A stretch of 20,633 nt of DNA, taken from IMG/VR virus record IMGVR_UViG_2606217106_000021; one strand, 5' to 3'. Origin of the DNA: a virus. Lineage: Duplodnaviria > Heunggongvirae > Uroviricota > Caudoviricetes. Made by a program: the position numbers and the translations under genes. Positions 1,335-20,633 of the stretch are shown here, one piece after another (position 1 is the first letter of the stretch; the number at the start of each line of letters is the position of its first letter). The notes under the pieces are model-generated. The model made no database searches. It was not told the origin of the DNA and saw only the letters and a list, made by a program, of their open reading frames with translations.

Positions 1335-1919
1335 TTACTCCCTGACAGGGTTCGTAGGCCACTCAATATCAGGTGCAGTTGATGTATCAACACGGTTCAG
1401 CAACACCCGATACTTTTTCCAGGCTTCCAGCAATGAGGTTTCTTCCTCCGTTGCAATTTCCAGATCTGCAGCATCCTGAAGCGGCGCAATATGCTCACTG
1501 GCTACCTGCATCAGGTTGTTTTTTGTTTCTTCCGCCTCCCGGATCCGGAACAGTTTTTCTGCTTCTGCATCTTTCACCCAGGTTGTGCCGTTCCACTTCT
1601 GAAACTCCCCTTCTGGCGATAACCAGGTAACATTTTCCGGTAATAAGCCGAGTTCAGAAATAAATAACGCGTCGCCGGAAGCTACGTCATAAACCGTTTT
1701 ACCCCGATGATCTTCAACGAGATGCCACGATGCCTCATCACTGTTGAAAACAGCCACAAAGCCAGCCGGAATATCTGGCGGTGCAATATCGGTACTGTTT
1801 GCTGGCAGACCTGTATGAGGCGGAATATATGCGTCACCTTCACCAATAAATTCATTAGTTCCGGCCAGCAGATTATAAATTTTTATGGTCCGTGCTTGTT
1901 CACTCATTCTGAATGCCAT
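1335..1919 (-). CDS. tfa: Tail fibre assembly protein Tfa (194 aa)
   Basis: Near full-length identity to lambda Tfa as I recall it ([78 protein letters not shown]...), same 194-aa length. Its ATG overlaps the stf stop as TAATG at 1917-1921. Confidence 0.93.
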
Positions 1920-11630: not shown

Positions 11631-11635
11631 GCCCA

Positions 11636-11885
11636 CAAGAAAACCCCTCCGGAGAGGGGCTAAAGCCGCGTATCTGTATCATCATGCACATGGTGCCGGG
11701 TGCCTCCCGGTGAGTTCAGCCCGGTGCCACTAAACCCGCGTCATTCTCGTTTTGATAATCAGAGATTATACCGTCACCAGTCGCCCCTCCGCTCAGGGGG
11801 ATTCACCATGCGAAATTTTTTTAACAAATGCCCAGTCTGACAGGCAACTGTCAACTTACTGAATTGTGAGCAACATAGCATTTAA
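11636..11885. repeat. Repeat unit A of a diverged direct repeat (partner at about 12122-12340)
   Basis: Shares identical blocks with unit B: aaaacccctccggagaggggct, catggtgccgggtgcctcccggtga, cccctccgcNcagggggattcaccatg, ttttaacaaa, gtcaac, ctgaattNtgag. Sequence between the blocks has diverged. Confidence 0.7.
11637..11660 (-). terminator. Minus-strand rho-independent terminator (repeat unit A)
   Basis: Minus strand reads cccctc-tccg-gagggg followed by ttttcttg. It is back to back with the plus-strand terminator at 11601-11630. Confidence 0.55.
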
Positions 11886-11934: not shown

Positions 11935-12121
11935 TGGAAGGATAGCGGTCATGTGATGCCGGTTTCCCGGTAACTCAGCACCGGTATCTGAGTCAACGTT
12001 TTCTCTACTGGGTCATTTCCGATACGCCCTGCCTGCTGACAGGCTTTCATCACATCTGAAAATATAGCACCCTGACTGATACTGTAGTACCTAAGGTTCC
12101 AGAAACTGTGATGTATCCGGC

Positions 12122-12148
12122 ACAGAAAAGCCCCTCCGGAGAGGGGCT
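12122..12148 (-). terminator. Minus-strand rho-independent terminator (repeat unit B)
   Basis: Minus strand reads gcccctc-tccg-gaggggc, a perfect 7-bp GC stem, followed by ttttctg. Confidence 0.6.
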
Positions 12149-12340
12149 GGAGAGTGGCGCTATGTGCCATTGCATGGTGCCGGGTGCCTCCCGGTGAATT
12201 CAGTACCAGCACCTGAATCCGCGATTATCCCATATACCTACTCGCTGATTGCCCCTCCGCACAGGGGGATTCACCATGCCAGTTTCTTTTAACAAACTCC
12301 CCGCAAACCAGACAACAGTCAACCGCCTGAATTATGAGAC
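12122..12340. repeat. Repeat unit B (partner of 11636-11885)
   Basis: Same conserved hairpin blocks as unit A. The hairpin cccctccgcacaggggg differs from unit A only in the loop (a versus t). Confidence 0.7.
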
Positions 12341-12383: not shown

Positions 12384-12460
12384 TGGCGCGTTGTACTGGA
12401 TTCGAACCAGTGACCGATTGCTTAGAAGGCAATTGCTCTGTCCGGCTGAGCTAACAACGC
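12384..12460 (-). tRNA. argO: tRNA-Arg (anticodon UCU)
   Basis: Reverse complement folds as a cloverleaf: acceptor GCGTTGT/ACAACGC, T-loop GGTTCGAATCC, anticodon loop CTTCTAA, 3' GCCA. The symbol is by analogy with the ileZ-argN-argO cluster of Stx-type lambdoid phages and is not verified. Confidence 0.85.
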
Positions 12461-12473
12461 ATGATGCAGATAA

Positions 12474-12550
12474 TGGACCGCCATCGGGGACTTGAACCCC
12501 GCGCAGCCAGCTTCGAAGGCTGGCGCTCTTTCCTGATGAGCTAATGGCGG
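12474..12550 (-). tRNA. argN: tRNA-Arg (anticodon UCG)
   Basis: Reverse complement: acceptor CCGCCAT/ATGGCGG, T-arm CGGGG-TTCAAGT-CCCCG, anticodon loop CTTCGAA, 3' TCCA. Symbol by analogy only. Confidence 0.8.
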
Positions 12551-12557
12551 TATGTGA

Positions 12558-12633
12558 TGGTGGCCCTTGCTGGATTTGAACCAGCGACCTGGCGATTATG
12601 AGTCGCTCGCTCTCACCACTGAGCTAAAGGGCC
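12558..12633 (-). tRNA. ileZ: tRNA with CAU anticodon, Ile2 (lysidine) type
   Basis: Reverse complement GGCCCTTTAGCTCAGTGGTGAGAGCGAGCGACTCATAATCGCCAGGTCGCTGGTTCAAATCCAGCAAGGGCCACCA closely resembles E. coli ileX-type tRNA (anticodon loop CTCATAA). Symbol by analogy only. Confidence 0.8.
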
Positions 12634-12661: not shown

Positions 12662-13375
12662 TCAATAATCAAGCCCTTGCCTGGATACATATCTGTCTGG
12701 CGGGAAGCCATAATAGCGGTGAAATACAGAAATAAAGTAGGACCTGCTTGAATAACCGCATTTTTCTGCTATAGCCTGTCCATATCCATGCCGGGAACAT
12801 AACATATTTACAGCAACACGCATCCGCTCTTCCAGCAACAAGCGACTGAACATGCCCCCTTCATTTTTCAGTTTTGTCTTTAACAAACTCTCACTCATAT
12901 GCAACTGTAGAGCAATCGCACCAAGCGTCCAGCTTGCTGATATATCTGTCTGAATTATCGCCCTGACTTTGGCACTTATGCTGGATAAACATCCACTTAA
13001 AAACAATGACATCCGTTCATCTGTTTCAAACAGAGACAGGCAGGCCATCATAAGAAACATATCCGTGGCCTCTCCGGAAAATCCCTGGCTGGTAATTAAA
13101 GCCGCAGCCAACGCAGGATTGTTGGGTTCCAGCAACAGGTAAAGCGGAATGTCAGTCAGACGAGTCCTCGTCAGCTTATGCTGACTTTCCAGATATTGAC
13201 TTACGACGGATTCGCTTATATCGACAATTTTAACTTTGCCATAATGCATAAGGAAAAGCTCCCTGATGCATTTGGTGGCCAGAACAACTGAGCCTGGCTT
13301 AAGTGACAACGTATCCTTTTCAAGAAAAATATTAATTGGGGAGCAAACCATGATAACTGAACAGACAACAGCCAT
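12662..13375 (-). CDS. AraC/XylS-family transcriptional regulator, AppY-like (237 aa)
   Basis: C-terminal AraC-type HTH (AIAEKCGYSSRSYFISVFHRYYGFPP). The N-terminus MAVVCSVIMVC...KIVDI resembles AppY (MDYVCSVVFIC...RIVDI, recalled from memory). AT-rich; the 13376-13509 gap upstream could hold its own promoter. Confidence 0.85.
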   Translation of the reverse strand: MAVVCSVIMVCSPINIFLEKDTLSLKPGSVVLATKCIRELFLMHYGKVKIVDISESVVSQYLESQHKLTRTRLTDIPLYLLLEPNNPALAAALITSQGFSGEATDMFLMMACLSLFETDERMSLFLSGCLSSISAKVRAIIQTDISASWTLGAIALQLHMSESLLKTKLKNEGGMFSRLLLEERMRVAVNMLCSRHGYGQAIAEKCGYSSRSYFISVFHRYYGFPPDRYVSRQGLDY

Positions 13376-14678: not shown

Positions 14679-15065
14679 CTATATGTAACAATCAATTTCT
14701 AAAGATACCCCCAACATTGCCAGACAACCGTCAATAAACCCTTCAGCTTTCTGCAGTCTGATAACAACCTGATTAAGTGATATCCCCAGTTTTACCCCCA
14801 ACACCCGTAATGTAACCCCATACACATAATACATTTCCAGTAATTCGTATTGATACGGTTCCTTTTTCTTAAGAACTGTCATCGCAGAGCTAATGATCAG
14901 GCCATCGTCATCGCTACATTGCGGGCGGGATTTTACTTTCGAAGGAATTAATCCCTTAAAACCTGCAGCAACAGATGACCATTCCACATCCTCGTGATTA
15001 TTTGCCACCCATGCCCCCCAACGTTCAAGAACCATTTGAATATCACGCATCAACTTTCTCCACAA
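14679..15065 (-). CDS. Late-gene antiterminator Q (phage 82/21 type, QuuD-like; 128 aa)
   Basis: MRDIQMVLERWGAW...GFKGLIPSKVKSRPQC...LQKAEGFIDG resembles my recollection of E. coli QuuD. An alternative start is at M6 (15050). Confidence 0.8.
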   Translation of the reverse strand: MWRKLMRDIQMVLERWGAWVANNHEDVEWSSVAAGFKGLIPSKVKSRPQCSDDDGLIISSAMTVLKKKEPYQYELLEMYYVYGVTLRVLGVKLGISLNQVVIRLQKAEGFIDGCLAMLGVSLEIDCYI

Positions 15066-15067
15066 AA

Positions 15068-16063
15068 TCAGGCCAGCACGCCTATTGCCAGCGCACGATC
15101 GATAAAACGAAATATCAGCTCCAGCTGGGAGCCATACTTCTCTTCAAATGCCACGGTATCCGCATGCAGCTCGTCGTGATGCTTTCTGCACAAAGGCAGC
15201 ACGAAGAGGTCATGCGCTTTTGTACCCATTCCCCCCTGACCGTGGCCTATCAGGTGGTGGGGATCATCAGCAGGCTTTCCACAACATGCACACGGCTGCG
15301 TCTTAACCCAGCGCGTGTACTTTTCATTAACCCAGCGGCGACGTTTGGGGCGTAACATAAAAGACTCCGGCGACTCCGGATCCACTTTCAGCGCCAGCAC
15401 CTTTTTCGCTTTATCCTGGATGATGCTGGTGGCAGGAACCGAAGGCACAAGGTCACTTTCCCGGGTGACAGACGGCACAACAGGCTTCGGTAATCTCAGT
15501 GCCTTACGGGCTGCACTTTCCGGTAAGGCATCCGCCAGGTCATTACGAATCAGCCACCAGCACAGTTCCGGCATTGTCACAACGTGACTGTCATCAAAAC
15601 CGAGATCCCGACGCACAACAGACAACACCCAGCGGGCACAGTTATCCGTTGCCATTGATTCCAGCCGTTCCGTGAACTGATCGCGCAGCTGGTTATCGCA
15701 GTGCCAGCACAGACGGATTGCGCCCGGAGCGTGTCGCATTGTGGTCATGTTCTCGCTGTGCCATCCGGAATGAGGCCACTGGCAGCCTTTTTCACGAAGT
15801 AACCAGCTTTCAAGACATTCCACGCCACCAGCACGACGGATCACTGCCTCATGGCGGAACACGGCCCGAACGGCAGGATCATCCGCCAGCGGTTGTGATG
15901 CCGCCGGAACGGCACCACTGGCGAAAGATGAATAACGCTCCGGCTCAGGCTCCAGCAGGACACGCCCCTGCATAAACAGGGGCATCAGCTCTGAACCTGG
16001 CCTGAACAATACGATCCCCATACGCGGGGCAATTTCAGGGGTCAGTAGTGCTCTCACAGTCAC
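15068..16063 (-). CDS. DUF968 (YdfU-like) protein with a C-terminal Cys/His-rich HNH-like motif (331 aa)
   Basis: C-terminal CACCGKPADDPHHLIGHGQGG...LCRKHHDELH. The position immediately upstream of Q matches the quuQ-ydfU arrangement I recall in the Qin prophage. Confidence 0.65.
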   Translation of the reverse strand: MTVRALLTPEIAPRMGIVLFRPGSELMPLFMQGRVLLEPEPERYSSFASGAVPAASQPLADDPAVRAVFRHEAVIRRAGGVECLESWLLREKGCQWPHSGWHSENMTTMRHAPGAIRLCWHCDNQLRDQFTERLESMATDNCARWVLSVVRRDLGFDDSHVVTMPELCWWLIRNDLADALPESAARKALRLPKPVVPSVTRESDLVPSVPATSIIQDKAKKVLALKVDPESPESFMLRPKRRRWVNEKYTRWVKTQPCACCGKPADDPHHLIGHGQGGMGTKAHDLFVLPLCRKHHDELHADTVAFEEKYGSQLELIFRFIDRALAIGVLA

Positions 16064-16064
16064 C

Positions 16065-16892
16065 TCAATGAACGGTATCGAGCAGCTTTAACAGCTCAGG
16101 AAATCGGGATTCGAAGAAATGCGGCTGCGTCTCGCGCGGATTTGCAGGACTGGTGATGTTCTTGCCGAACATGCAGCCTTTCGCGGTCAGCGACCAGAAT
16201 TTTTTGATGTTGTTAATCGCGGTACGGCTGTATCGTTCGCGTTGTTCAACGATCCCCAGCTTCGCCATCTGGTGATATGCCTGATTAGCCGTCAGGCGGA
16301 TACCATACTGCTTCAGCAGTGCACTCAGCGACAGCGTAGGGCGGCTTGAACCATCTGGCGCATCAGCAGGTGCATCAATGGCATAGATCGGCATAAGTTC
16401 AGGAAGACCAGCTACCTTTGATAATTTCTGGTATGCACCAAGTTTCGAGGAGTTTGACAGATTTAGAGTCTTTGCTGCTGATTCAAGCAGAATGACCCCG
16501 GATTTAATTTTGTCGGATGTGGTTTCTTCTGGTGATGAATTATGAAGCGCATCAAAAGTACGTATCACTTTTAAGCTGAATGCCGGGCTGATCCACATTG
16601 CATATGCATAGACCAGCTCTTTACAGACATACGTCCCACCATTGCGCCCCTGAATGGTGATGACAGGAATACTACGGGAATCTCCCGTAGTTTCTTCTTC
16701 CAATAATTCCACAAGAGCCTTCGTTTCAGGACGACGCATAAACTCGTGAACTTCCAGCGAACGGGAGGAGCGATTCTCACCAGCGGCAAGAAGAGCAGCT
16801 TTCTGAAGGTCGTTAAGACAGTAGTTAGATTCGAAGTACTGACGCACAGAAACGCCATCAATTACAAGCAACTGATTCATTGGTTTCTCCAC
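16065..16892 (-). CDS. KilA-N domain protein (275 aa), possible antirepressor-type regulator
   Basis: The N-terminal region LLVIDGVSVRQYFE...ITIQGRNGGTYVCKELVYAYAMWISPAF fits the KilA-N signature (GGTW/Y...A.WISP.F). The C-terminal half is unrecognised. Confidence 0.75.
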   Translation of the reverse strand: MEKPMNQLLVIDGVSVRQYFESNYCLNDLQKAALLAAGENRSSRSLEVHEFMRRPETKALVELLEEETTGDSRSIPVITIQGRNGGTYVCKELVYAYAMWISPAFSLKVIRTFDALHNSSPEETTSDKIKSGVILLESAAKTLNLSNSSKLGAYQKLSKVAGLPELMPIYAIDAPADAPDGSSRPTLSLSALLKQYGIRLTANQAYHQMAKLGIVEQRERYSRTAINNIKKFWSLTAKGCMFGKNITSPANPRETQPHFFESRFPELLKLLDTVH

Positions 16893-16977
16893 AAATTTTT
16901 ATCCACGAGCGGGACTGCACTCCCTTTTCGTTGATGCAGGATGAACTTACTGCGATTTTTAATAGTTATCAAGGATA

Positions 16978-16997
16978 CACTGTTCATAAATACAGTA
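16978..16997. promoter_or_regulatory. LexA-box-like palindrome (CACTGTTCATAAATACAGTA) about 85 bp upstream of the KilA-N gene
   Basis: CTGT-N8-ACAG with an AT-rich centre, compared with the consensus TACTGTATATATATACAGTA. It lies in the only sizeable intergenic gap of the early operon (16893-17042). Confidence 0.5.
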
Positions 16998-17042
16998 TCT
17001 TTAACGAGGTAATACCCAAATTTAGGGTGTTGCTCAATTCCG

Positions 17043-17438
17043 TTACCGAGTTGCTAATTTGCAACTCGCTTTTTCGTACTTACTGATAGTGATCTCGACC
17101 TTCCCCTCCGGGATAACCGGTCCCCACTCCACCAGCATTCTTTTCACCTGACTGTCGTCTTCCCACACACCCGCGTGGGTCAGGGCGTCAAACAGCGCCT
17201 TGTTATAGTTGTCCAGATCGCGGATCCGGTTATCCGGAGGAAACAACACGATCTCCACTGAAGCAGGTGCCGACGTTGGTTTCGGCAGACGACGTAACTG
17301 CTCAACTATTGCTGCACACGCCGCGCTCTGGAATTTTCGCCCCGCCGCGCTTATCAGGCTCTTACCAGCAAACGCCCCTTTGTTGGGGTGTCGCCAGTAC
17401 GTGTTCACGCTGGGCGGAAAAGGCAGTATTAGCTTCAT
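17043..17438 (-). CDS. rusA: RusA-family Holliday junction resolvase (131 aa)
   Basis: LPFPPSVNTYWRH ... RIRDLDNYNKALFDALTHAGVWEDDSQV matches the RusA family pattern (LPWPPS.N.YYRH ... RRRDLDN..KA.FDALT.AG.W.DD.QV). Confidence 0.85.
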   Translation of the reverse strand: MKLILPFPPSVNTYWRHPNKGAFAGKSLISAAGRKFQSAACAAIVEQLRRLPKPTSAPASVEIVLFPPDNRIRDLDNYNKALFDALTHAGVWEDDSQVKRMLVEWGPVIPEGKVEITISKYEKASCKLATR

Positions 17439-17761
17439 ACTTTCAGGCCCCTCTCATGTAACCAGTGGGCTGCACGCAGCCTGGCGTTTGCCTCACCGGC
17501 AAGCAGGGCGCGGATAATCCCGACCGCCTCGCTGTCGTCGTCCTTCACCGCGGTATGAAGAGTGATACCCCGGGCCACGCCACGCTTTATCGTGATGACA
17601 CCTTTTTTCTCCAGTGCGCGAAGATGCTCCACCGCTGCATTCACCGAACGGTATCCCAGCATGGTTGCCACCTCCTGATTGGTTGGCGGGAAGCCACGTT
17701 CTTTCTGATAAGAAATCAGCATATCCAGCACCTGCTGCTGGCATTGAGTTAATGTCGTCAT
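17435..17761 (-). CDS. LexA N-terminal DNA-binding-domain homologue without the peptidase domain (108 aa)
   Basis: LTQCQQQVLDMLISYQKERGFPPTNQEVATMLGYRSVNAAVEHLRALEKKGVITIKRGVARGITL aligns with the LexA N-terminus ([65 protein letters not shown]). No Ser/Lys peptidase domain follows. ATGA overlap with rusA. Confidence 0.75.
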   Translation of the reverse strand: MTTLTQCQQQVLDMLISYQKERGFPPTNQEVATMLGYRSVNAAVEHLRALEKKGVITIKRGVARGITLHTAVKDDDSEAVGIIRALLAGEANARLRAAHWLHERGLKV

Positions 17762-18411
17762 GCCGCCATCTCCCTGACCAGTTTTTCCGCCTGCTGGCGA
17801 ACCTGCGCCAGAAACGCCTCACCACATGCCTCAAGTTCATCGCGCCCTATGTAGCTGATTGCCGGTCCCTTCCAGGTCTTGTCGAAAACAGCAATAGCAC
17901 CAGCGAAGAAAGCACCTGTTGGCACCTGCTTTTCGTCTTTCGGGATAAACCAGGCAGGCAGTTCAAAACCAATACGCCCGCGAATAAAAGCAATATGATC
18001 TGCATCTTCCGGCCACCACACTTCGCTGGTGGCAGCTTTGATCAGGAAAACATAGCGCCCGCCTTTATCACGCATGGCACTGGCATGTTTCATGATGTAA
18101 CGCATGCCGGTGATGTATTGCCCCTCATGCTGACTGGCGCGGCTGTACGGGGGATTACCAAAGGCAGCACCTTTAAGCTCCGCAAGACGTTCAGACCAGT
18201 CATGCGCCAGCGCGTTGTCTTCCGCAGTGTAATAAGCGGCACATTTGGCGTTATCACCATCAGTGAACAGATCCAGAACAAACGGGCCAAACAGGGTGTT
18301 AATTCCCCAGAAAATGTTGTCCGGCGTGCGCCACTGATCGCCCACTTCCTTCAGTTCATGGGCTGGTTTGTTCCGCAGCTCCACCAGCGCCTGGCAATAT
18401 TTATTACTCAT
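17758..18411 (-). CDS. Phage Dam-type DNA N6-adenine methyltransferase (about 217 aa; six-frame ORF extends to 18444)
   Basis: Catalytic FGNPPYSR (NPPY) motif. The start is probably M12 (MSNKY...), which forms a TAATG overlap with the upstream gene stop at 18411-18413. Confidence 0.8.
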   Translation of the reverse strand: MSNKYCQALVELRNKPAHELKEVGDQWRTPDNIFWGINTLFGPFVLDLFTDGDNAKCAAYYTAEDNALAHDWSERLAELKGAAFGNPPYSRASQHEGQYITGMRYIMKHASAMRDKGGRYVFLIKAATSEVWWPEDADHIAFIRGRIGFELPAWFIPKDEKQVPTGAFFAGAIAVFDKTWKGPAISYIGRDELEACGEAFLAQVRQQAEKLVREMAA

Positions 18412-18905
18412 TAAGCCCCCACGTAATTCCCTGACAGATACCACTCTTCACCCGATGCAGCGCGCTTGCTGCTTTTCCGTAAGCACCGCTCACGATGCGC
18501 CAGAAAATTGTTTCGTTCTGGCTGGGAGTGGCTTTCACGGAATGCCTCCATCCACACCGTTGCAGCTCGACGGAATAAGCCCCTGGACTCCAGTTCTTCC
18601 GCCTGGCGAGTCAGGCACAAAATCACCTGCGGGTCGTTAGTGCCGACACAGAAATTGCGCACAGGTCTGGTTTCACGAACTGGTTGTGGTTCCGGCTCCT
18701 GTGCTCTCTCAGTCAGGCGCGGGAAATGTCTGCGTGTATCTCCTTCACAACGGTGAGCCACACGCCCACTCTGACGTAACTTGCTTGCTGACTGCAGAAC
18801 GCGCTGCCGTGAGTAACCTGCAAAAGCATCCGCAATGTCTCCGGAAGTACACCCCGGATGGGCTTCAATGAATTTCTGAACTTCATTCAAAAGACTCATG
18901 ATCAC
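18411..18905 (-). CDS. Hypothetical protein (164 aa) with a possible PerC-like motif
   Basis: AEELESRGLFRRAATVWMEAF resembles the PerC/Pch family signature as I recall it (LE..G.wRRAA..W). Translationally coupled on both sides. The family assignment is uncertain. Confidence 0.45.
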   Translation of the reverse strand: MIMSLLNEVQKFIEAHPGCTSGDIADAFAGYSRQRVLQSASKLRQSGRVAHRCEGDTRRHFPRLTERAQEPEPQPVRETRPVRNFCVGTNDPQVILCLTRQAEELESRGLFRRAATVWMEAFRESHSQPERNNFLAHRERCLRKSSKRAASGEEWYLSGNYVGA

Positions 18906-19720
18906 CCCCTGAATCCTTCCGGGATCTGGCTGTAGTCCACGTTGTCGTAACTGGCTTTGAAGTACGGGTCCTCGCGTCTGGCTGCAGATACCGCAGGAAC
19001 TTCCCAGGATTCTTCGAAATGACGATCCGGACCAAAGAACGTGACAGCCTGTTTCACAAATTGTGTGCCGCTGTTACCCATCGCAGATACCCAGCCCGCG
19101 TAGCGTTTCACACCTTCCAGCATGGTTTCGGGGTTTACCCCCTCATTCAAACGGGCTTTCCAGGCTTTGAAGGCTGCAGATTTTGAATTGCCACCAGCAC
19201 GTTTGGGGTATGCCAGCCATGCCTGCTCAAACTCCGGAGAGTATTCCGGTCGGTTTGAACGAACTCGCACAGACTCATCAGCAGATTCACCAACAGCTAT
19301 TGGTTCATTGACTGGTTCTTTGACTGGTTCAAAAGAGTGACTGGTTCTGGGTGAATCTCCTGCACTACCCCCTGGTGCAACTCCTGCACTACCTGGTGAA
19401 TTTGCTGCACCAGATAGTGAATTATTTGCACTACCCCCTAGTGAATCTCCTGCACCATCCAGATGAAGGAGATAGATATTACTTGAGTTACCTTTTTCAC
19501 CTTTCCGGGTGACTTTTTTTACCAGCCCGGACTCACAGAGGGCCGCAATATGATTCATCACAGAACGTTTGCTAATCTCGCACTGATCAGCGATATGCTG
19601 ATAGCTGGGCCAGCACTCACCCTGATCGCTGGCATTATCAGCCAGCTTAATCAGAACCAGTTTTCGCAATGGATTTCCCACTCGAATTTTCATCGCTTTA
19701 ACCATCAACTCCATACTCAT
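18902..19720 (-). CDS. Replication initiator (O-like) with N-terminal HTH and internal iterons (about 272 aa from MSMELM...; six-frame ORF extends to 19759)
   Basis: N-terminal LVLIKLADNASDQGECWPSYQHIADQCEISKRSVMNHIAALCESGLVKK is typical of phage replication-initiator HTH domains. The gene contains a direct-repeat array at 19309-19460 followed by an AT-rich stretch. GGAGG lies 7 nt before the ATG at 19718-19720. Confidence 0.65.
   Translation of the reverse strand: MSMELMVKAMKIRVGNPLRKLVLIKLADNASDQGECWPSYQHIADQCEISKRSVMNHIAALCESGLVKKVTRKGEKGNSSNIYLLHLDGAGDSLGGSANNSLSGAANSPGSAGVAPGGSAGDSPRTSHSFEPVKEPVNEPIAVGESADESVRVRSNRPEYSPEFEQAWLAYPKRAGGNSKSAAFKAWKARLNEGVNPETMLEGVKRYAGWVSAMGNSGTQFVKQAVTFFGPDRHFEESWEVPAVSAARREDPYFKASYDNVDYSQIPEGFRG
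19309..19460. repeat. Candidate replication origin: three TGACTGGTTC repeats and five ~21-24 bp iterons (GTGAAT.T.CTGCAC.A.CCC) inside the O-like gene
   Basis: Direct repeats read from the sequence at about 19309, 19321, 19338 (10-mers) and 19351, 19374, 19395, 19417, 19441 (iterons). An AT-rich segment at 19461-19500 follows. Confidence 0.6.
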
Positions 19721-19941
19721 GCAGCACCTCCGAGATGCTTCATGTTTTTTCCGGAGCAAAAGGCTATAAGCGGCATACTGACGCGGTAATTACGGCCCAG
19801 CGGTTCACAAATCACCTTCTGACATTCACGGTCAACCAGGCTAACACGTAGAACATGCCCTGCAGGCGTGGTGTACCACTGACCCGGACGAGGACAACAG
19901 AAAGTATGATTGGTAAACCGTTTGAAAATATTCCGGATCAT
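19717..19941 (-). CDS. Hypothetical small Cys-containing protein (74 aa)
   Basis: Its start overlaps the Rha stop and its stop overlaps the O-like start, both as ATGA. No family recognised. Confidence 0.4.
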   Translation of the reverse strand: MIRNIFKRFTNHTFCCPRPGQWYTTPAGHVLRVSLVDRECQKVICEPLGRNYRVSMPLIAFCSGKNMKHLGGAA

Positions 19942-20483: not shown

Positions 20484-20633
20484 GGTGACAGCCCCTATGT
20501 TGAATTCAATGAACTCACCACCAAGGCTTTCCACGACCATATAGGTGGTGAGACGTACAGGGGTGGAAATACCGGTCAACATAGAACCCGGCCCAACCGA
20601 AGTTGGCCCTGCACGCCCCACCATAATTTGGGC

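What the first reader, a model, noticed from the sequence alone, without database searches (positions are those of the whole stretch)
16893..17042. LexA-box-like palindrome upstream of the KilA-N gene
CACTGTTCATAAATACAGTA (16978-16997) fits the E. coli SOS-box pattern CTGT-N8-ACAG. It sits in the only real intergenic gap of an otherwise overlapping early operon, about 85 bp before the KilA-N gene. KilA-N proteins are often antirepressors, and LexA-controlled antirepressors are a known SOS-induction route in some temperate phages (coliphage 186 Tum, Salmonella Gifsy phages). This suggests induction by antirepressor and not by repressor autocleavage.
Basis: partly seen in the sequence, partly recalled or inferred. 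Interest (0 to 1): 0.6.

Follow-up and report, generated by a model that had tools for sequence, protein, structure and literature searches.

The report
LexA-controlled promoter before prophage kilA-N
A strong binding site for the bacterial DNA-damage repressor LexA sits next to a conserved internal promoter in front of the kilA-N gene of an E. coli lambdoid prophage, so this gene is probably switched on directly by DNA damage, but nothing supports the idea that it replaces the phage repressor's own self-cleavage.

Summary
The palindrome is real: CACTGTTCATAAATACAGTA at 16978-16997, in the 162-nt gap between rusA and kilA-N (genes on the minus strand). The bare CTGT-N8-ACAG core is not significant (25 of 100 shuffles). 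The full 20-mer scores 21.9 bits on a matrix of 27 E. coli operators, mid to upper range of real ones, and 1 of 300 shuffles reaches it.

Comparative evidence is the main support. LexA-box-like sites recur 75-157 nt upstream of kilA-N orthologues in Citrobacter, Edwardsiella, Erwinia, Serratia and Raoultella. Sites of 15 bits or more: 4 of 14,480 upstream positions against 1 of 233,616 elsewhere. A sigma-70 promoter (TTGATA-17-TAAGTT) lies 5 nt downstream of the box, at a position shared by orthologues.

Best reading: host LexA represses an internal promoter, giving SOS-inducible, CI-independent transcription of kilA-N and DUF968, possibly Q.

The antirepressor reading is not supported. The prophage repressor has an S24 self-cleavage domain. 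The same box and kilA-N allele occur with two unrelated repressors. The protein resembles no known antirepressor.

Extras: a phage-encoded truncated LexA homologue two genes upstream (as in GIL01 gp6), a conserved leader hairpin, and a second LexA box inside cI, outside the window.

The parts
16978..16997 (-). LexA operator (SOS box), TACTGTATTTATGAACAGTG on the coding strand
   Evidence: PWM 21.9 bits, top site in the window, reached by 1 of 300 shuffles. HI-like value 5.3/6.3. Conserved in SfIV, E2863 and AZ187; the last base G>A gives 23.8 bits. Box-like sites at the equivalent place in L059, L041, L054, L009 and L052.
16944..16972 (-). Predicted sigma-70 promoter P(kilA-N): -35 TTGATA 16972-16967, 17-nt spacer, -10 TAAGTT 16949-16944. 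Predicted start about 16937, so the box centre is about -50.5.
   Evidence: Own promoter matrix gives 11.4 bits; the 90th percentile of the best score per 180-nt segment is 8.8. The consensus scan tool did not list it (8 of 12 matches). Best promoters of orthologous gaps end at the same distance, -59 to -65 from the ATG. Prediction only.
16901..16935 (-). Conserved 5' leader hairpin. Inner stem GGGA/TCCC (16924-16921 / 16914-16911), loop GUGCAG (16920-16915), outer stem ACGA/UCGU.
   Evidence: 20 of 32 orthologous leaders have a stem of 4 or more pairs with loop (N)U[GA]C[AG]G, against 1.7% of shuffles. On alignment A6, 71.9% of cells pair against 49.1% shuffled (0/500), and all 8 pairs show compensatory changes. 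MFE fold. No Rfam family. Also present in the box-less Stx2a_1447 and mEp460 alleles.
16065..16880 (-). kilA-N gene, 271 aa: KilA-N domain, long helices, and an uncharacterised C-terminal alpha/beta domain
   Evidence: Pfam PF04383, E 1.3e-15. phrog_129. AF2 model pLDDT 77. SD GGAG at 16890-16887.
15068..16057 (-). DUF968/YdfU gene with an HNH-like C-terminus, 7 nt after kilA-N. The pair is conserved.
   Evidence: Pfam PF06147, E 1.9e-81. Annotation of the identical prophage. kilA-N plus DUF968 pair found in 38 of the loci then held.
14679..15050 (-). Q antiterminator gene, 17 nt after DUF968. It is a possible further target of transcripts from P(kilA-N).
   Evidence: Pfam PF06530, E 1.5e-47. 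Only weak terminator-like hairpins (15134-15116, 15092-15072) lie before it. Q-type genes follow DUF968 in the orthologous loci that extend that far.
17435..17761 (-). Phage-encoded truncated LexA homologue, 108 aa: DNA-binding domain only, no S24 domain
   Evidence: Pfam LexA_DNA_bind, E 2.9e-19. 43% identity to E. coli LexA residues 1-87. Recognition helix RSVNAAVEHLRAL against RSPNAAEEHLKAL. TIGR00498 matched over positions 1-91 only. Synteny LexA-like, RusA, gap, KilA-N is kept in Citrobacter, Kluyvera, Cedecea, Leclercia and Kosakonia.
17043..17438 (-). rusA, the upstream gene. Its last codons hold the palindrome 17047-17068.
   Evidence: Pfam RusA. The hairpin is terminator-like only on the + strand. 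There is no U-tract on the coding strand, so read-through from pR is expected.

Best explanation
The 20-bp palindrome is a functional operator for host LexA. It abuts a sigma-70 promoter, P(kilA-N), inside the nin-type region of a lambdoid prophage.

In a lysogen, CI keeps pR off and LexA keeps this internal promoter off. After DNA damage, RecA* triggers LexA self-cleavage and the promoter fires. This gives CI- and N-independent transcription of kilA-N and the tightly linked DUF968 gene. Some transcripts may reach Q.

During lytic growth the same genes are also reached by read-through from pR, because no sense-strand terminator precedes the box.

The module is a second, direct SOS input into the prophage. 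It works alongside RecA-stimulated cleavage of the S24-type CI repressor and does not replace it.

Shown here: the site, its score, its conservation and recurrence, the gene layout, and the nature of the repressor.
Inferred: LexA binding, the promoter and transcription start, the extent of the transcript, and what KilA-N does. KilA-N is probably a DNA-binding regulator with two putative DNA-binding modules.
For: - Score: 21.9 bits, within the range of validated operators. It is the best site in the window and 1 of 300 shuffles reaches it. HI-like value 5.3/6.3.
- Conservation within E. coli and Shigella: the 20-mer core is invariant except for its last base, which changes G>A towards the consensus. 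The surrounding gap carries about 10 substitutions and an 11-bp deletion.
- Recurrence across genera: box-like sites lie 75-157 nt upstream of kilA-N orthologues. Citrobacter 19.0 bits, Edwardsiella 18.8, Erwinia 16.7, Serratia 15.1, Raoultella 13.7.
- Enrichment: sites of 15 bits or more number 4 of 14,480 upstream positions against 1 of 233,616 elsewhere.
- Promoter: the best predicted promoters of these gaps all end 59-65 nt before the ATG.
- Box position relative to the promoter: in Erwinia the box covers the -10 of TTGCCA-17-TATATT. In Edwardsiella it lies in the spacer and -10. In the window, Citrobacter and Raoultella it lies 4-5 nt upstream of the -35.
- Operon layout: gaps of 7 and 17 nt to DUF968 and Q. 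No strong terminator in between.
- Precedent: in Gifsy prophages the LexA box lies 1.3 kb downstream of the replication genes, beside the dinI homologue that heads the operon carrying the antirepressor gene (PMC3121763).
Against: - No binding or expression data exist for this site. Literature searches found nothing linking KilA-N and LexA.
- In the window the box lies upstream of the -35 (centre about -50.5). This is not the usual operator position over the core promoter, so repression efficiency is uncertain.
- The promoter is a prediction. Its -10 matches only 3 of 6 positions and the consensus scan tool did not list it.
- Many orthologues keep the promoter and leader but have weak or decayed boxes, or no gap at all: L089, L091, L093, L097-L099, Stx2a_1447, mEp460. 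LexA control is therefore dispensable for the gene.
- My operator and promoter matrices were built from memory of published compilations.
Confidence: 0.68

Rival explanations
1. The site is mainly, or also, the operator of the phage's own truncated LexA homologue (108 aa, 17435-17761). This protein cannot be cleaved and is made from pR after induction. It would re-repress or activate P(kilA-N), and perhaps host SOS promoters. Together with host LexA it would form a two-LexA timing circuit like GIL01 LexA/gp6.
For: - The homologue keeps S39, N41, A42, A43, E45 and the wing ARGI of E. coli LexA (43% identity).
- The order LexA-like, RusA, gap, KilA-N is conserved across several genera.
- The box centre at about -50.5 is a position where activators often sit.
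- The predicted -10 is weak.
- In orthologues whose homologue differs at helix positions 44/45, the site differs in the outer base of the half-sites: GTGG..CCAG in L095 and GTGT..ACAG in L091.
- GIL01 gp6 is a truncated LexA homologue that activates a promoter repressed by host LexA (PMC6182141).
Against: - The homologue is also present in phages without any box or gap (Stx2a_1447, mEp460).
- It is absent near the boxes of the Erwinia and Serratia loci.
- It lacks LexA's dimerisation domain, so affinity for a palindromic operator is uncertain.
- The apparent helix/site co-variation rests on 4-5 loci.
Confidence: 0.15
2. One reading: KilA-N is a LexA-controlled antirepressor that inactivates the prophage repressor, as the induction route (186 Tum or Gifsy type). 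A softened version has it acting in trans on co-resident prophages, in addition to cI cleavage.
For: - The LexA box is in front of the gene.
- Its position in the nin region matches that of the Gifsy antirepressor operon.
- Fels-1 combines a cleavable CI with an antirepressor homologue that is functional when expressed (PMC3121763).
Against: - The repressor is an S24 type with catalytic Ser and Lys and an Ala-Gly site.
- The same kilA-N allele occurs with two unrelated repressors.
- There is no similarity to Tum, DinI, GfoA, AntC or the P22 Ant/KilA-C domain.
- The fold points to DNA binding.
- Box-less alleles are plain early-operon genes.
- A better antirepressor candidate exists elsewhere in the window: the Rha/Ash protein with a C4 antisense RNA.
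Confidence: 0.08
3. The palindrome is a chance or decaying relic at a mosaic junction and has no regulatory role in this phage. kilA-N would be expressed only by read-through from pR.
For: - The box lies in a mosaic block that runs from the end of rusA to about codon 160 of kilA-N.
- Many orthologues have degenerate boxes.
- The bare core pattern is common by chance.
Against: - The full-length score is reached by 1 of 300 shuffles.
- The box stays intact, and even improves, while its flanks mutate.
- It is identical in 186 E. coli genomes and in three phage isolates (SfIV, PhiR49_1, VIT_AJPSC), counting duplicate records once.
- Independent boxes with unrelated sequence occur at the same place in other genera.
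Confidence: 0.07
4. The box controls a + strand (antisense) transcript that ends at the terminator-like hairpin 17047-17068 inside the 3' end of rusA. An example would be a small SOS-induced RNA.
For: On the + strand the hairpin CGAGTTGC-N6-GCAACTCG is followed by CTTTTTCG.
Against: - The best + strand promoter scores 7.8 bits or less, against 11.4 on the minus strand.
- The order box, promoter, hairpin, SD, ATG is conserved relative to kilA-N.
- No Rfam match.
- No convincing + strand ORF.
Confidence: 0.02

Closest known systems
Gifsy-1/-2/-3 LexA-controlled dinI-gfoA/gftA-irsA operon (Salmonella; Lemire et al. 2011, PMC3121763)
   Same: A host LexA box and its own promoter sit inside the right arm of a lambdoid prophage, downstream of the replication genes. 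A palindrome precedes the box. The result is SOS-inducible expression from an otherwise repressed prophage.
   Different: The cargo here is a 271-aa KilA-N protein plus DUF968, not DinI plus a small antirepressor. The palindrome is not a sense-strand terminator. The repressor here is an S24 self-cleaving type, whereas Gifsy repressors are not cleaved. No antirepressor activity is shown or suggested by homology.
Coliphage 186 p95-tum, N15 antC and Salmonella phage SPC32H ant (LexA-repressed antirepressor genes)
   Same: A single E. coli-type SOS box governs a prophage gene expressed on LexA cleavage.
   Different: Those phages depend on the antirepressor because their repressors do not self-cleave. 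Here the defining features were tested and not met: a non-cleavable repressor, homology to known antirepressors, and cognate pairing.
Bacillus phage GIL01 P3 promoter with host LexA and the truncated LexA homologue gp6 (Fornelos et al. 2018, PMC6182141)
   Same: The phage encodes a LexA DNA-binding-domain-only homologue (about 43-44% identity to host LexA in both cases). It also has a host LexA box at a promoter upstream of late-function control genes.
   Different: GIL01 has no dedicated repressor and uses gp7 as a LexA co-repressor. This phage has CI. Binding of the coliphage homologue to this box is untested. The homologue also occurs in phages without the box.
Chromosomal E. coli SOS operators (for example uvrA, uvrB, recN, dinI)
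   Same: A 20-bp TACTGT-N8-ACAGTA-type palindrome with an A/T-rich spacer and a score in the same range.
   Different: In the window the box lies just upstream of the predicted -35, not over the -35, -10 or +1. The target genes have unknown function.

Membership tests
E. coli-type LexA operator (SOS box) | Palindromic CTGT-N8-ACAG core | tested here: met
   CTGTTCATAAATACAG at 16980-16995, the only exact match in the window.
E. coli-type LexA operator (SOS box) | Full 20-bp similarity within the range of validated operators | tested here: met
   21.9 bits against 12.8-27.3 for 27 known operators. Reached by 1 of 300 shuffles. HI-like value 5.3/6.3. The matrices were built from memory of published sites.
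E. coli-type LexA operator (SOS box) | Placement at a promoter it can occlude | tested here: inconclusive
   The predicted promoter TTGATA-17-TAAGTT starts 5 nt downstream of the box, putting the box centre at about -50.5. In orthologues the box overlaps the -10 or the spacer (L054, L041). No mapped transcription start.
E. coli-type LexA operator (SOS box) | Conservation in orthologous regulatory regions | tested here: met
   Kept in diverged E. coli alleles. Recurs in 5 other genera. Sites of 15 bits or more: 4 of 14,480 upstream positions against 1 of 233,616 background.
E. coli-type LexA operator (SOS box) | LexA binding and LexA/RecA-dependent induction | not testable with these tools
   Needs EMSA or footprinting, and reporter assays in lexA+ and lexA(Ind-) hosts.
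LexA-controlled antirepressor induction systems (186 Tum, N15 AntC, Gifsy GfoA/GftA, SPC32H Ant) | LexA box at the promoter of the candidate gene | tested here: met
LexA-controlled antirepressor induction systems (186 Tum, N15 AntC, Gifsy GfoA/GftA, SPC32H Ant) | Prophage repressor that does not self-cleave (no S24 catalytic domain) | tested here: not met
   The repressor of the identical prophage has Peptidase_S24 (E 5.8e-19) with GDSM, KRL and Ala-Gly. The SfIV/PhiR49_1 repressor has the same features.
LexA-controlled antirepressor induction systems (186 Tum, N15 AntC, Gifsy GfoA/GftA, SPC32H Ant) | Homology of the gene product to a known antirepressor family | tested here: not met
   Only KilA-N (Pfam) and phrog_129 'transcriptional regulator'. 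The C-terminal half has no Pfam or NCBIfam hit. No PDB sequence or fold match.
LexA-controlled antirepressor induction systems (186 Tum, N15 AntC, Gifsy GfoA/GftA, SPC32H Ant) | Antirepressor allele co-varies with repressor (immunity) type | tested here: not met
   A 99%-identical kilA-N allele and box occur with two repressors only 24% identical to each other.
LexA-controlled antirepressor induction systems (186 Tum, N15 AntC, Gifsy GfoA/GftA, SPC32H Ant) | Physical binding to and inactivation of the repressor | not testable with these tools
   Needs two-hybrid or pull-down assays and induction assays.
GIL01-type dual LexA circuit (host LexA plus truncated phage LexA homologue) | Phage-encoded LexA homologue reduced to the DNA-binding domain | tested here: met
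   108 aa, LexA_DNA_bind only, 43% identity to E. coli LexA NTD.
GIL01-type dual LexA circuit (host LexA plus truncated phage LexA homologue) | The homologue binds at the LexA-controlled promoter and changes its activity | not testable with these tools
   Only indirect hints: conserved synteny and possible helix/site co-variation.
GIL01-type dual LexA circuit (host LexA plus truncated phage LexA homologue) | Lysogeny maintained by host LexA without a dedicated phage repressor | tested here: not met
   A cI/cro/cII-type immunity region is present in the identical prophage.
KilA-N domain proteins (PF04383) | Match to the KilA-N profile above the gathering score | tested here: met
   57.6 bits against a cut-off of 23.8, residues 14-118. 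The BFVD fold hits are KilA-N proteins.

The most novel reading that the evidence does not exclude
The box is a shared operator for host LexA and for the phage's own non-cleavable LexA DNA-binding-domain homologue, which is encoded two genes upstream.

Host LexA would hold the internal promoter off in the lysogen. SOS would open it. The phage homologue, made from pR, would then take over the site, and possibly host SOS boxes. That would time kilA-N/DUF968/Q expression and damp or reshape the host SOS response.

This would be a GIL01-like two-LexA circuit, but in lambdoid enterobacterial phages, including relatives of Stx phages. The same prophage also has a conserved LexA box inside its cI gene and a conserved structured leader before kilA-N.
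Probability: 0.15. Interest if true: 0.75.

Novelty: new member of a known kind. Interest (0 to 1): 0.45.

Why it matters
If LexA really gates this promoter, a widespread lambdoid module has a direct SOS input that bypasses CI, placed immediately upstream of the late-gene antiterminator Q. The module occurs in 186 of 5,426 complete E. coli genomes, in Shigella serotype-converting phage SfIV, and in relatives across Enterobacterales.

That would affect how fast, and at what level of damage, such prophages commit to late gene expression. It would also assign a first regulatory context to the uncharacterised but very common KilA-N/DUF968 gene pair.

The phage-encoded truncated LexA next to it suggests that lambdoid phages may manipulate LexA-controlled promoters themselves. 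So far this has been shown only for the Bacillus tectivirus GIL01.

The work also corrects the tempting equation 'KilA-N plus LexA box equals antirepressor-driven induction'.

Tried and rejected
- The consensus promoter scan found no promoter in the gap. I then used my own weight matrix.
- Rfam, at gathering and permissive thresholds, found nothing in 16700-17200.
- RNAalifold on the MAFFT leader alignment predicted no structure because the alignment is gappy. I tested a named structure instead.
- One of my IUPAC patterns was mis-specified and is uninformative.
- Four literature searches gave nothing on this locus: KilA-N/LexA/antirepressor, SfIV/LexA, KilA-N/SOS, and LexA/SOS box/nin region.
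- PDB sequence search, Pfam at E up to 10, and NCBIfam gave nothing for the C-terminal half of the KilA-N protein.
- Foldseek against PDB gave only non-significant winged-helix hits.
- I rejected a + strand small RNA or ORF because its promoters are weak and the layout is tied to kilA-N.
- I rejected the rusA 3' palindrome as a sense-strand terminator because it has no U-tract.
- I looked for a promoter next to the cI-internal LexA box and found only weak candidates.

Full report
**What is there**

The window is the right arm and late region of a lambdoid prophage. Its early genes run on the minus strand. In order they are:
- a Rha/Ash-domain gene (19938 onward)
- an O-like replication gene (18902-19759)
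- PerC-like (18411-18905)
- Dam (17758-18444)
- RusA (17043-17438)
- a 162-nt gap
- a KilA-N protein (16065-16880)
- DUF968/YdfU (15068-16057)
- antiterminator Q (14679-15050)

The flagged sequence CACTGTTCATAAATACAGTA is at 16978-16997. On the coding strand it reads TACTGTATTTATGAACAGTG. It lies 97 nt before the most likely start of kilA-N: ATG 16880, with GGAG at 16890-16887. The gap is the only one longer than 20 nt in this gene run.

**Is it more than chance?**

The bare CTGT-N8-ACAG core is not. It occurs once in the window, and 25 of 100 dinucleotide shuffles contain at least one.

The full 20-mer is. I built a symmetrised weight matrix from 27 E. coli operators recalled from the published compilations.
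- The site scores 21.9 bits. Real operators score 12.8-27.3 on this matrix.
- It is the best site in the window; the next best scores 15.4 bits.
- Only 1 of 300 shuffles of the window reaches it.
- A heterology-index-like value from the same sites is 5.3/6.3, in the range of uvrA, uvrB, uvrD and recN2.

**Where else is it?**

The rusA-gap-kilA-N stretch is 98-100% identical in three places:
- Shigella phage SfIV and its near-identical relative VIT_AJPSC
- Escherichia phage PhiR49_1
- 186 of 5,426 complete E. coli genomes

The window is 100% identical to a prophage of E. coli TOE17 over the 3.6 kb compared.

In the two most diverged E. coli alleles (95% and 92% identity), the gap carries about ten substitutions and an 11-bp deletion. 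The box is untouched except that its last base changes G>A. That gives the better TACTGT...ACAGTA, at 23.8 bits.

In the sister allele of Stx2a_1447 and mEp460, the N-terminal ~160 codons of kilA-N differ. There the gap is only 19 nt and there is no box.

**Comparative footprint**

I collected 80 loci that encode relatives of the KilA-N N-terminus, one genome per species.
- Sites of 13 bits or more cluster 75-157 nt upstream of the gene. They are in Citrobacter (19.0), Edwardsiella (18.8), Erwinia (16.7), Serratia (15.1) and Raoultella (13.7).
- Their sequences are unrelated to the window's apart from the LexA consensus.
- Sites of 15 bits or more number 4 of 14,480 upstream positions, against 1 of 233,616 positions elsewhere in the same loci.
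- Further orthologues have weak or decayed palindromes at the same place.

LexA boxes in front of this gene are therefore a recurrent but dispensable feature.

**Promoter**

A simple sigma-70 weight matrix gives TTGATA(16972-16967)-17-TAAGTT(16949-16944) as the best promoter of the gap.
- It scores 11.4 bits. The 90th percentile of the best score per 180-nt segment of the window is 8.8.
- The stricter consensus scan tool did not list it.

Its position is conserved. The best promoters of the orthologous gaps all have their -10 ending 59-65 nt before the ATG. Examples are TTGCCA-17-TATATT, TTGAAA-17-TAATGT, TTGCTA-17-TAATGT, TTGAAG-17-TAATCT and TTGCAT-17-TATTTT.

The box sits differently in different loci:
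- Over the -10 in the Erwinia locus.
- In the spacer and -10 in Edwardsiella.
- 4-5 nt upstream of the -35 in the window, Citrobacter and Raoultella. In the window this puts the box centre at about -50.5.

All three placements are compatible with repression. The last one is the least classical.

The + strand of the gap has only weak promoter candidates, at 7.8 bits or less. The palindrome at the 3' end of rusA (17047-17068) looks like a terminator only on the + strand. Read-through from pR into kilA-N is therefore expected.

**Downstream reach**

kilA-N, DUF968 and Q are separated by 7 and 17 nt. Only weak terminator-like hairpins lie just before Q.

The order methylase, LexA-like, RusA, gap, KilA-N, DUF968 is kept in Citrobacter, Kluyvera, Cedecea, Leclercia and Kosakonia. 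A Q-type antiterminator follows wherever the locus extends that far, and three different Q families appear.

A LexA-gated promoter here may thus also feed Q. Whether it does is not known.

**The antirepressor idea**

Several results argue against it.
- The immunity region lies just beyond the window. In the identical TOE17 prophage the cI-like repressor (230 aa) has an HTH plus a Peptidase_S24 domain. It keeps GDSM, KRL and an Ala-Gly. This is the classical RecA-stimulated self-cleaving type.
- SfIV and PhiR49_1 carry the same box and a 99%-identical kilA-N allele. Their repressor is a different S24 type, only 24% identical. A cognate antirepressor would be expected to co-vary with immunity.
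- The protein matches only KilA-N and phrog_129 'transcriptional regulator'. Its C-terminal half has no Pfam, NCBIfam or PDB sequence match.
- An AlphaFold model (pLDDT 77) shows KilA-N, long helices and a small alpha/beta domain. The only PDB neighbours of the model are non-significant winged-helix DNA binders. The viral library returns only KilA-N proteins.

The evidence fits a DNA-binding regulator better than a repressor-binding protein.

A trans-acting antirepressor role on top of cI cleavage cannot be excluded. Fels-1 combines a cleavable CI with an antirepressor homologue that is functional when expressed (PMC3121763).

**The phage's own LexA**

The 108-aa protein is 43% identical to E. 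coli LexA residues 1-87.
- It keeps the recognition helix: RSVNAAVEHLRAL against RSPNAAEEHLKAL.
- It keeps the wing motif ARGI.
- It has no S24 domain.
- Homologues in other genera keep SPNAA but vary at helix positions 44/45.

This resembles gp6 of Bacillus phage GIL01. gp6 is a truncated LexA homologue that activates a late promoter which host LexA represses (PMC6182141).

The coliphage protein might bind this box. Against a dedicated pairing, it also occurs in phages without the box, and it is missing near the boxes of the Erwinia and Serratia loci. I keep this as the most novel reading that is not excluded.

**Leader hairpin**

Between the predicted start and the SD lies a hairpin with stem GGGA/TCCC and loop GUGCAG (16924-16911).
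- A hairpin with loop (N)U[GA]C[AG]G and a freely varying stem is found in 20 of 32 orthologous leaders. Only 1.7% of shuffled leaders have one.
- It is also present in the box-less Stx2a_1447 and mEp460 alleles.
- On a 26-sequence alignment, 71.9% of cells pair, against 49.1% in shuffles (0/500). All 8 pairs show compensatory changes, and slid controls score lower.
- It matches no Rfam family.

Its role is unknown. It could affect mRNA stability or translational control, or serve as a protein-binding site.

**Comparison with known systems**

The closest known system is the LexA-controlled dinI-antirepressor operon in the same region of Gifsy prophages. The window differs from it in cargo, in having a self-cleaving repressor, and in lacking any antirepressor signature. 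I file the finding as a new member of the known kind 'LexA-repressed prophage promoter', and not as a member of the antirepressor-induction family. Three defining features of that family were tested and not met.

No paper in the searchable library links KilA-N genes to LexA.

**Verdict**

- Confidence that host LexA regulates a promoter here is about 0.68.
- Interest is moderate, 0.45.

Noticed in passing
L006 14198-14217 (E. coli TOE17 prophage identical to the window; about 1.6 kb beyond the window's right end, inside the cI gene): A very strong LexA box, TACTGTATGTAAAAACAGTA (25.0 bits), lies inside the linker-coding part of the S24-type cI repressor gene. It is kept in diverged cI alleles; the O157:H7 allele reads TACTGTATATAAAAACAGTA. 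The codons on both sides vary. This cI occurs in 1,040 of 5,426 E. coli genomes. Only weak promoter candidates lie next to it. Its function is unknown.
   Followed up: partly
window 16901-16935 (-); also L002, L003 and many of L008-L098: A conserved 5' leader hairpin before kilA-N has a conserved loop, GUGCAG/UUGCAG (UGUACGG, UAUACGG or AUGCGG in Morganellaceae), and freely co-varying stems. It is followed by a conserved GGATAAAAA..GTGGAGA stretch. It matches no Rfam family.
   Followed up: partly
window 17435-17761 (-): The phage encodes a LexA DNA-binding domain without the protease domain. It is 108 aa and 43% identical to E. coli LexA NTD. It is conserved directly upstream of rusA in lambdoid prophages of several Enterobacteriaceae genera, including Stx2 phages and mEp460. 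It is analogous to GIL01 gp6 (PMC6182141).
   Followed up: partly
window 20541-20628 (-): An Rfam C4 antisense RNA match (82.4 bits) lies within or at the start of the Rha/Ash-domain ORF. That ORF has PHROG matches to anti-repressor families. This P1 immI-like module is a better antirepressor candidate in this phage than KilA-N.
   Followed up: no
window 11631-11840, 12118-12308, 12387-12633 (-): Two copies of the sRNA family STnc100 and three tRNA genes (annotated Ile, Arg, Arg in the identical prophage) lie downstream of Q. This is typical of Stx-phage-like late regions.
   Followed up: no
window 1378-1576 (-): An Rfam IS009 match (225.7 bits). An identical hairpin, ATATCAG-GTGCAG-TTGATGT, is repeated at 324 and 1373 on the + strand.
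   Followed up: no
window 17047-17068: The palindrome CGAGTTGC-N6-GCAACTCG lies in the last codons of rusA and is terminator-like only on the antisense (+) strand. The box-less allele has a different hairpin, GGCGG-GTGCAG-CCGCC, at the same place; that one is the leader hairpin.
   Followed up: partly
window 12979-12998: The second-best LexA-matrix hit in the window is TGCTGGATAAACATCCACTT (15.4 bits). It lies inside the HTH-protein ORF 12662-13375 and one half-site is imperfect. It is probably chance.
   Followed up: no
L041 1241-1435 (Edwardsiella anguillarum): In this locus the LexA-like gene lies downstream of kilA-N, inside the putative LexA-controlled unit, and not upstream of rusA.
   Followed up: no
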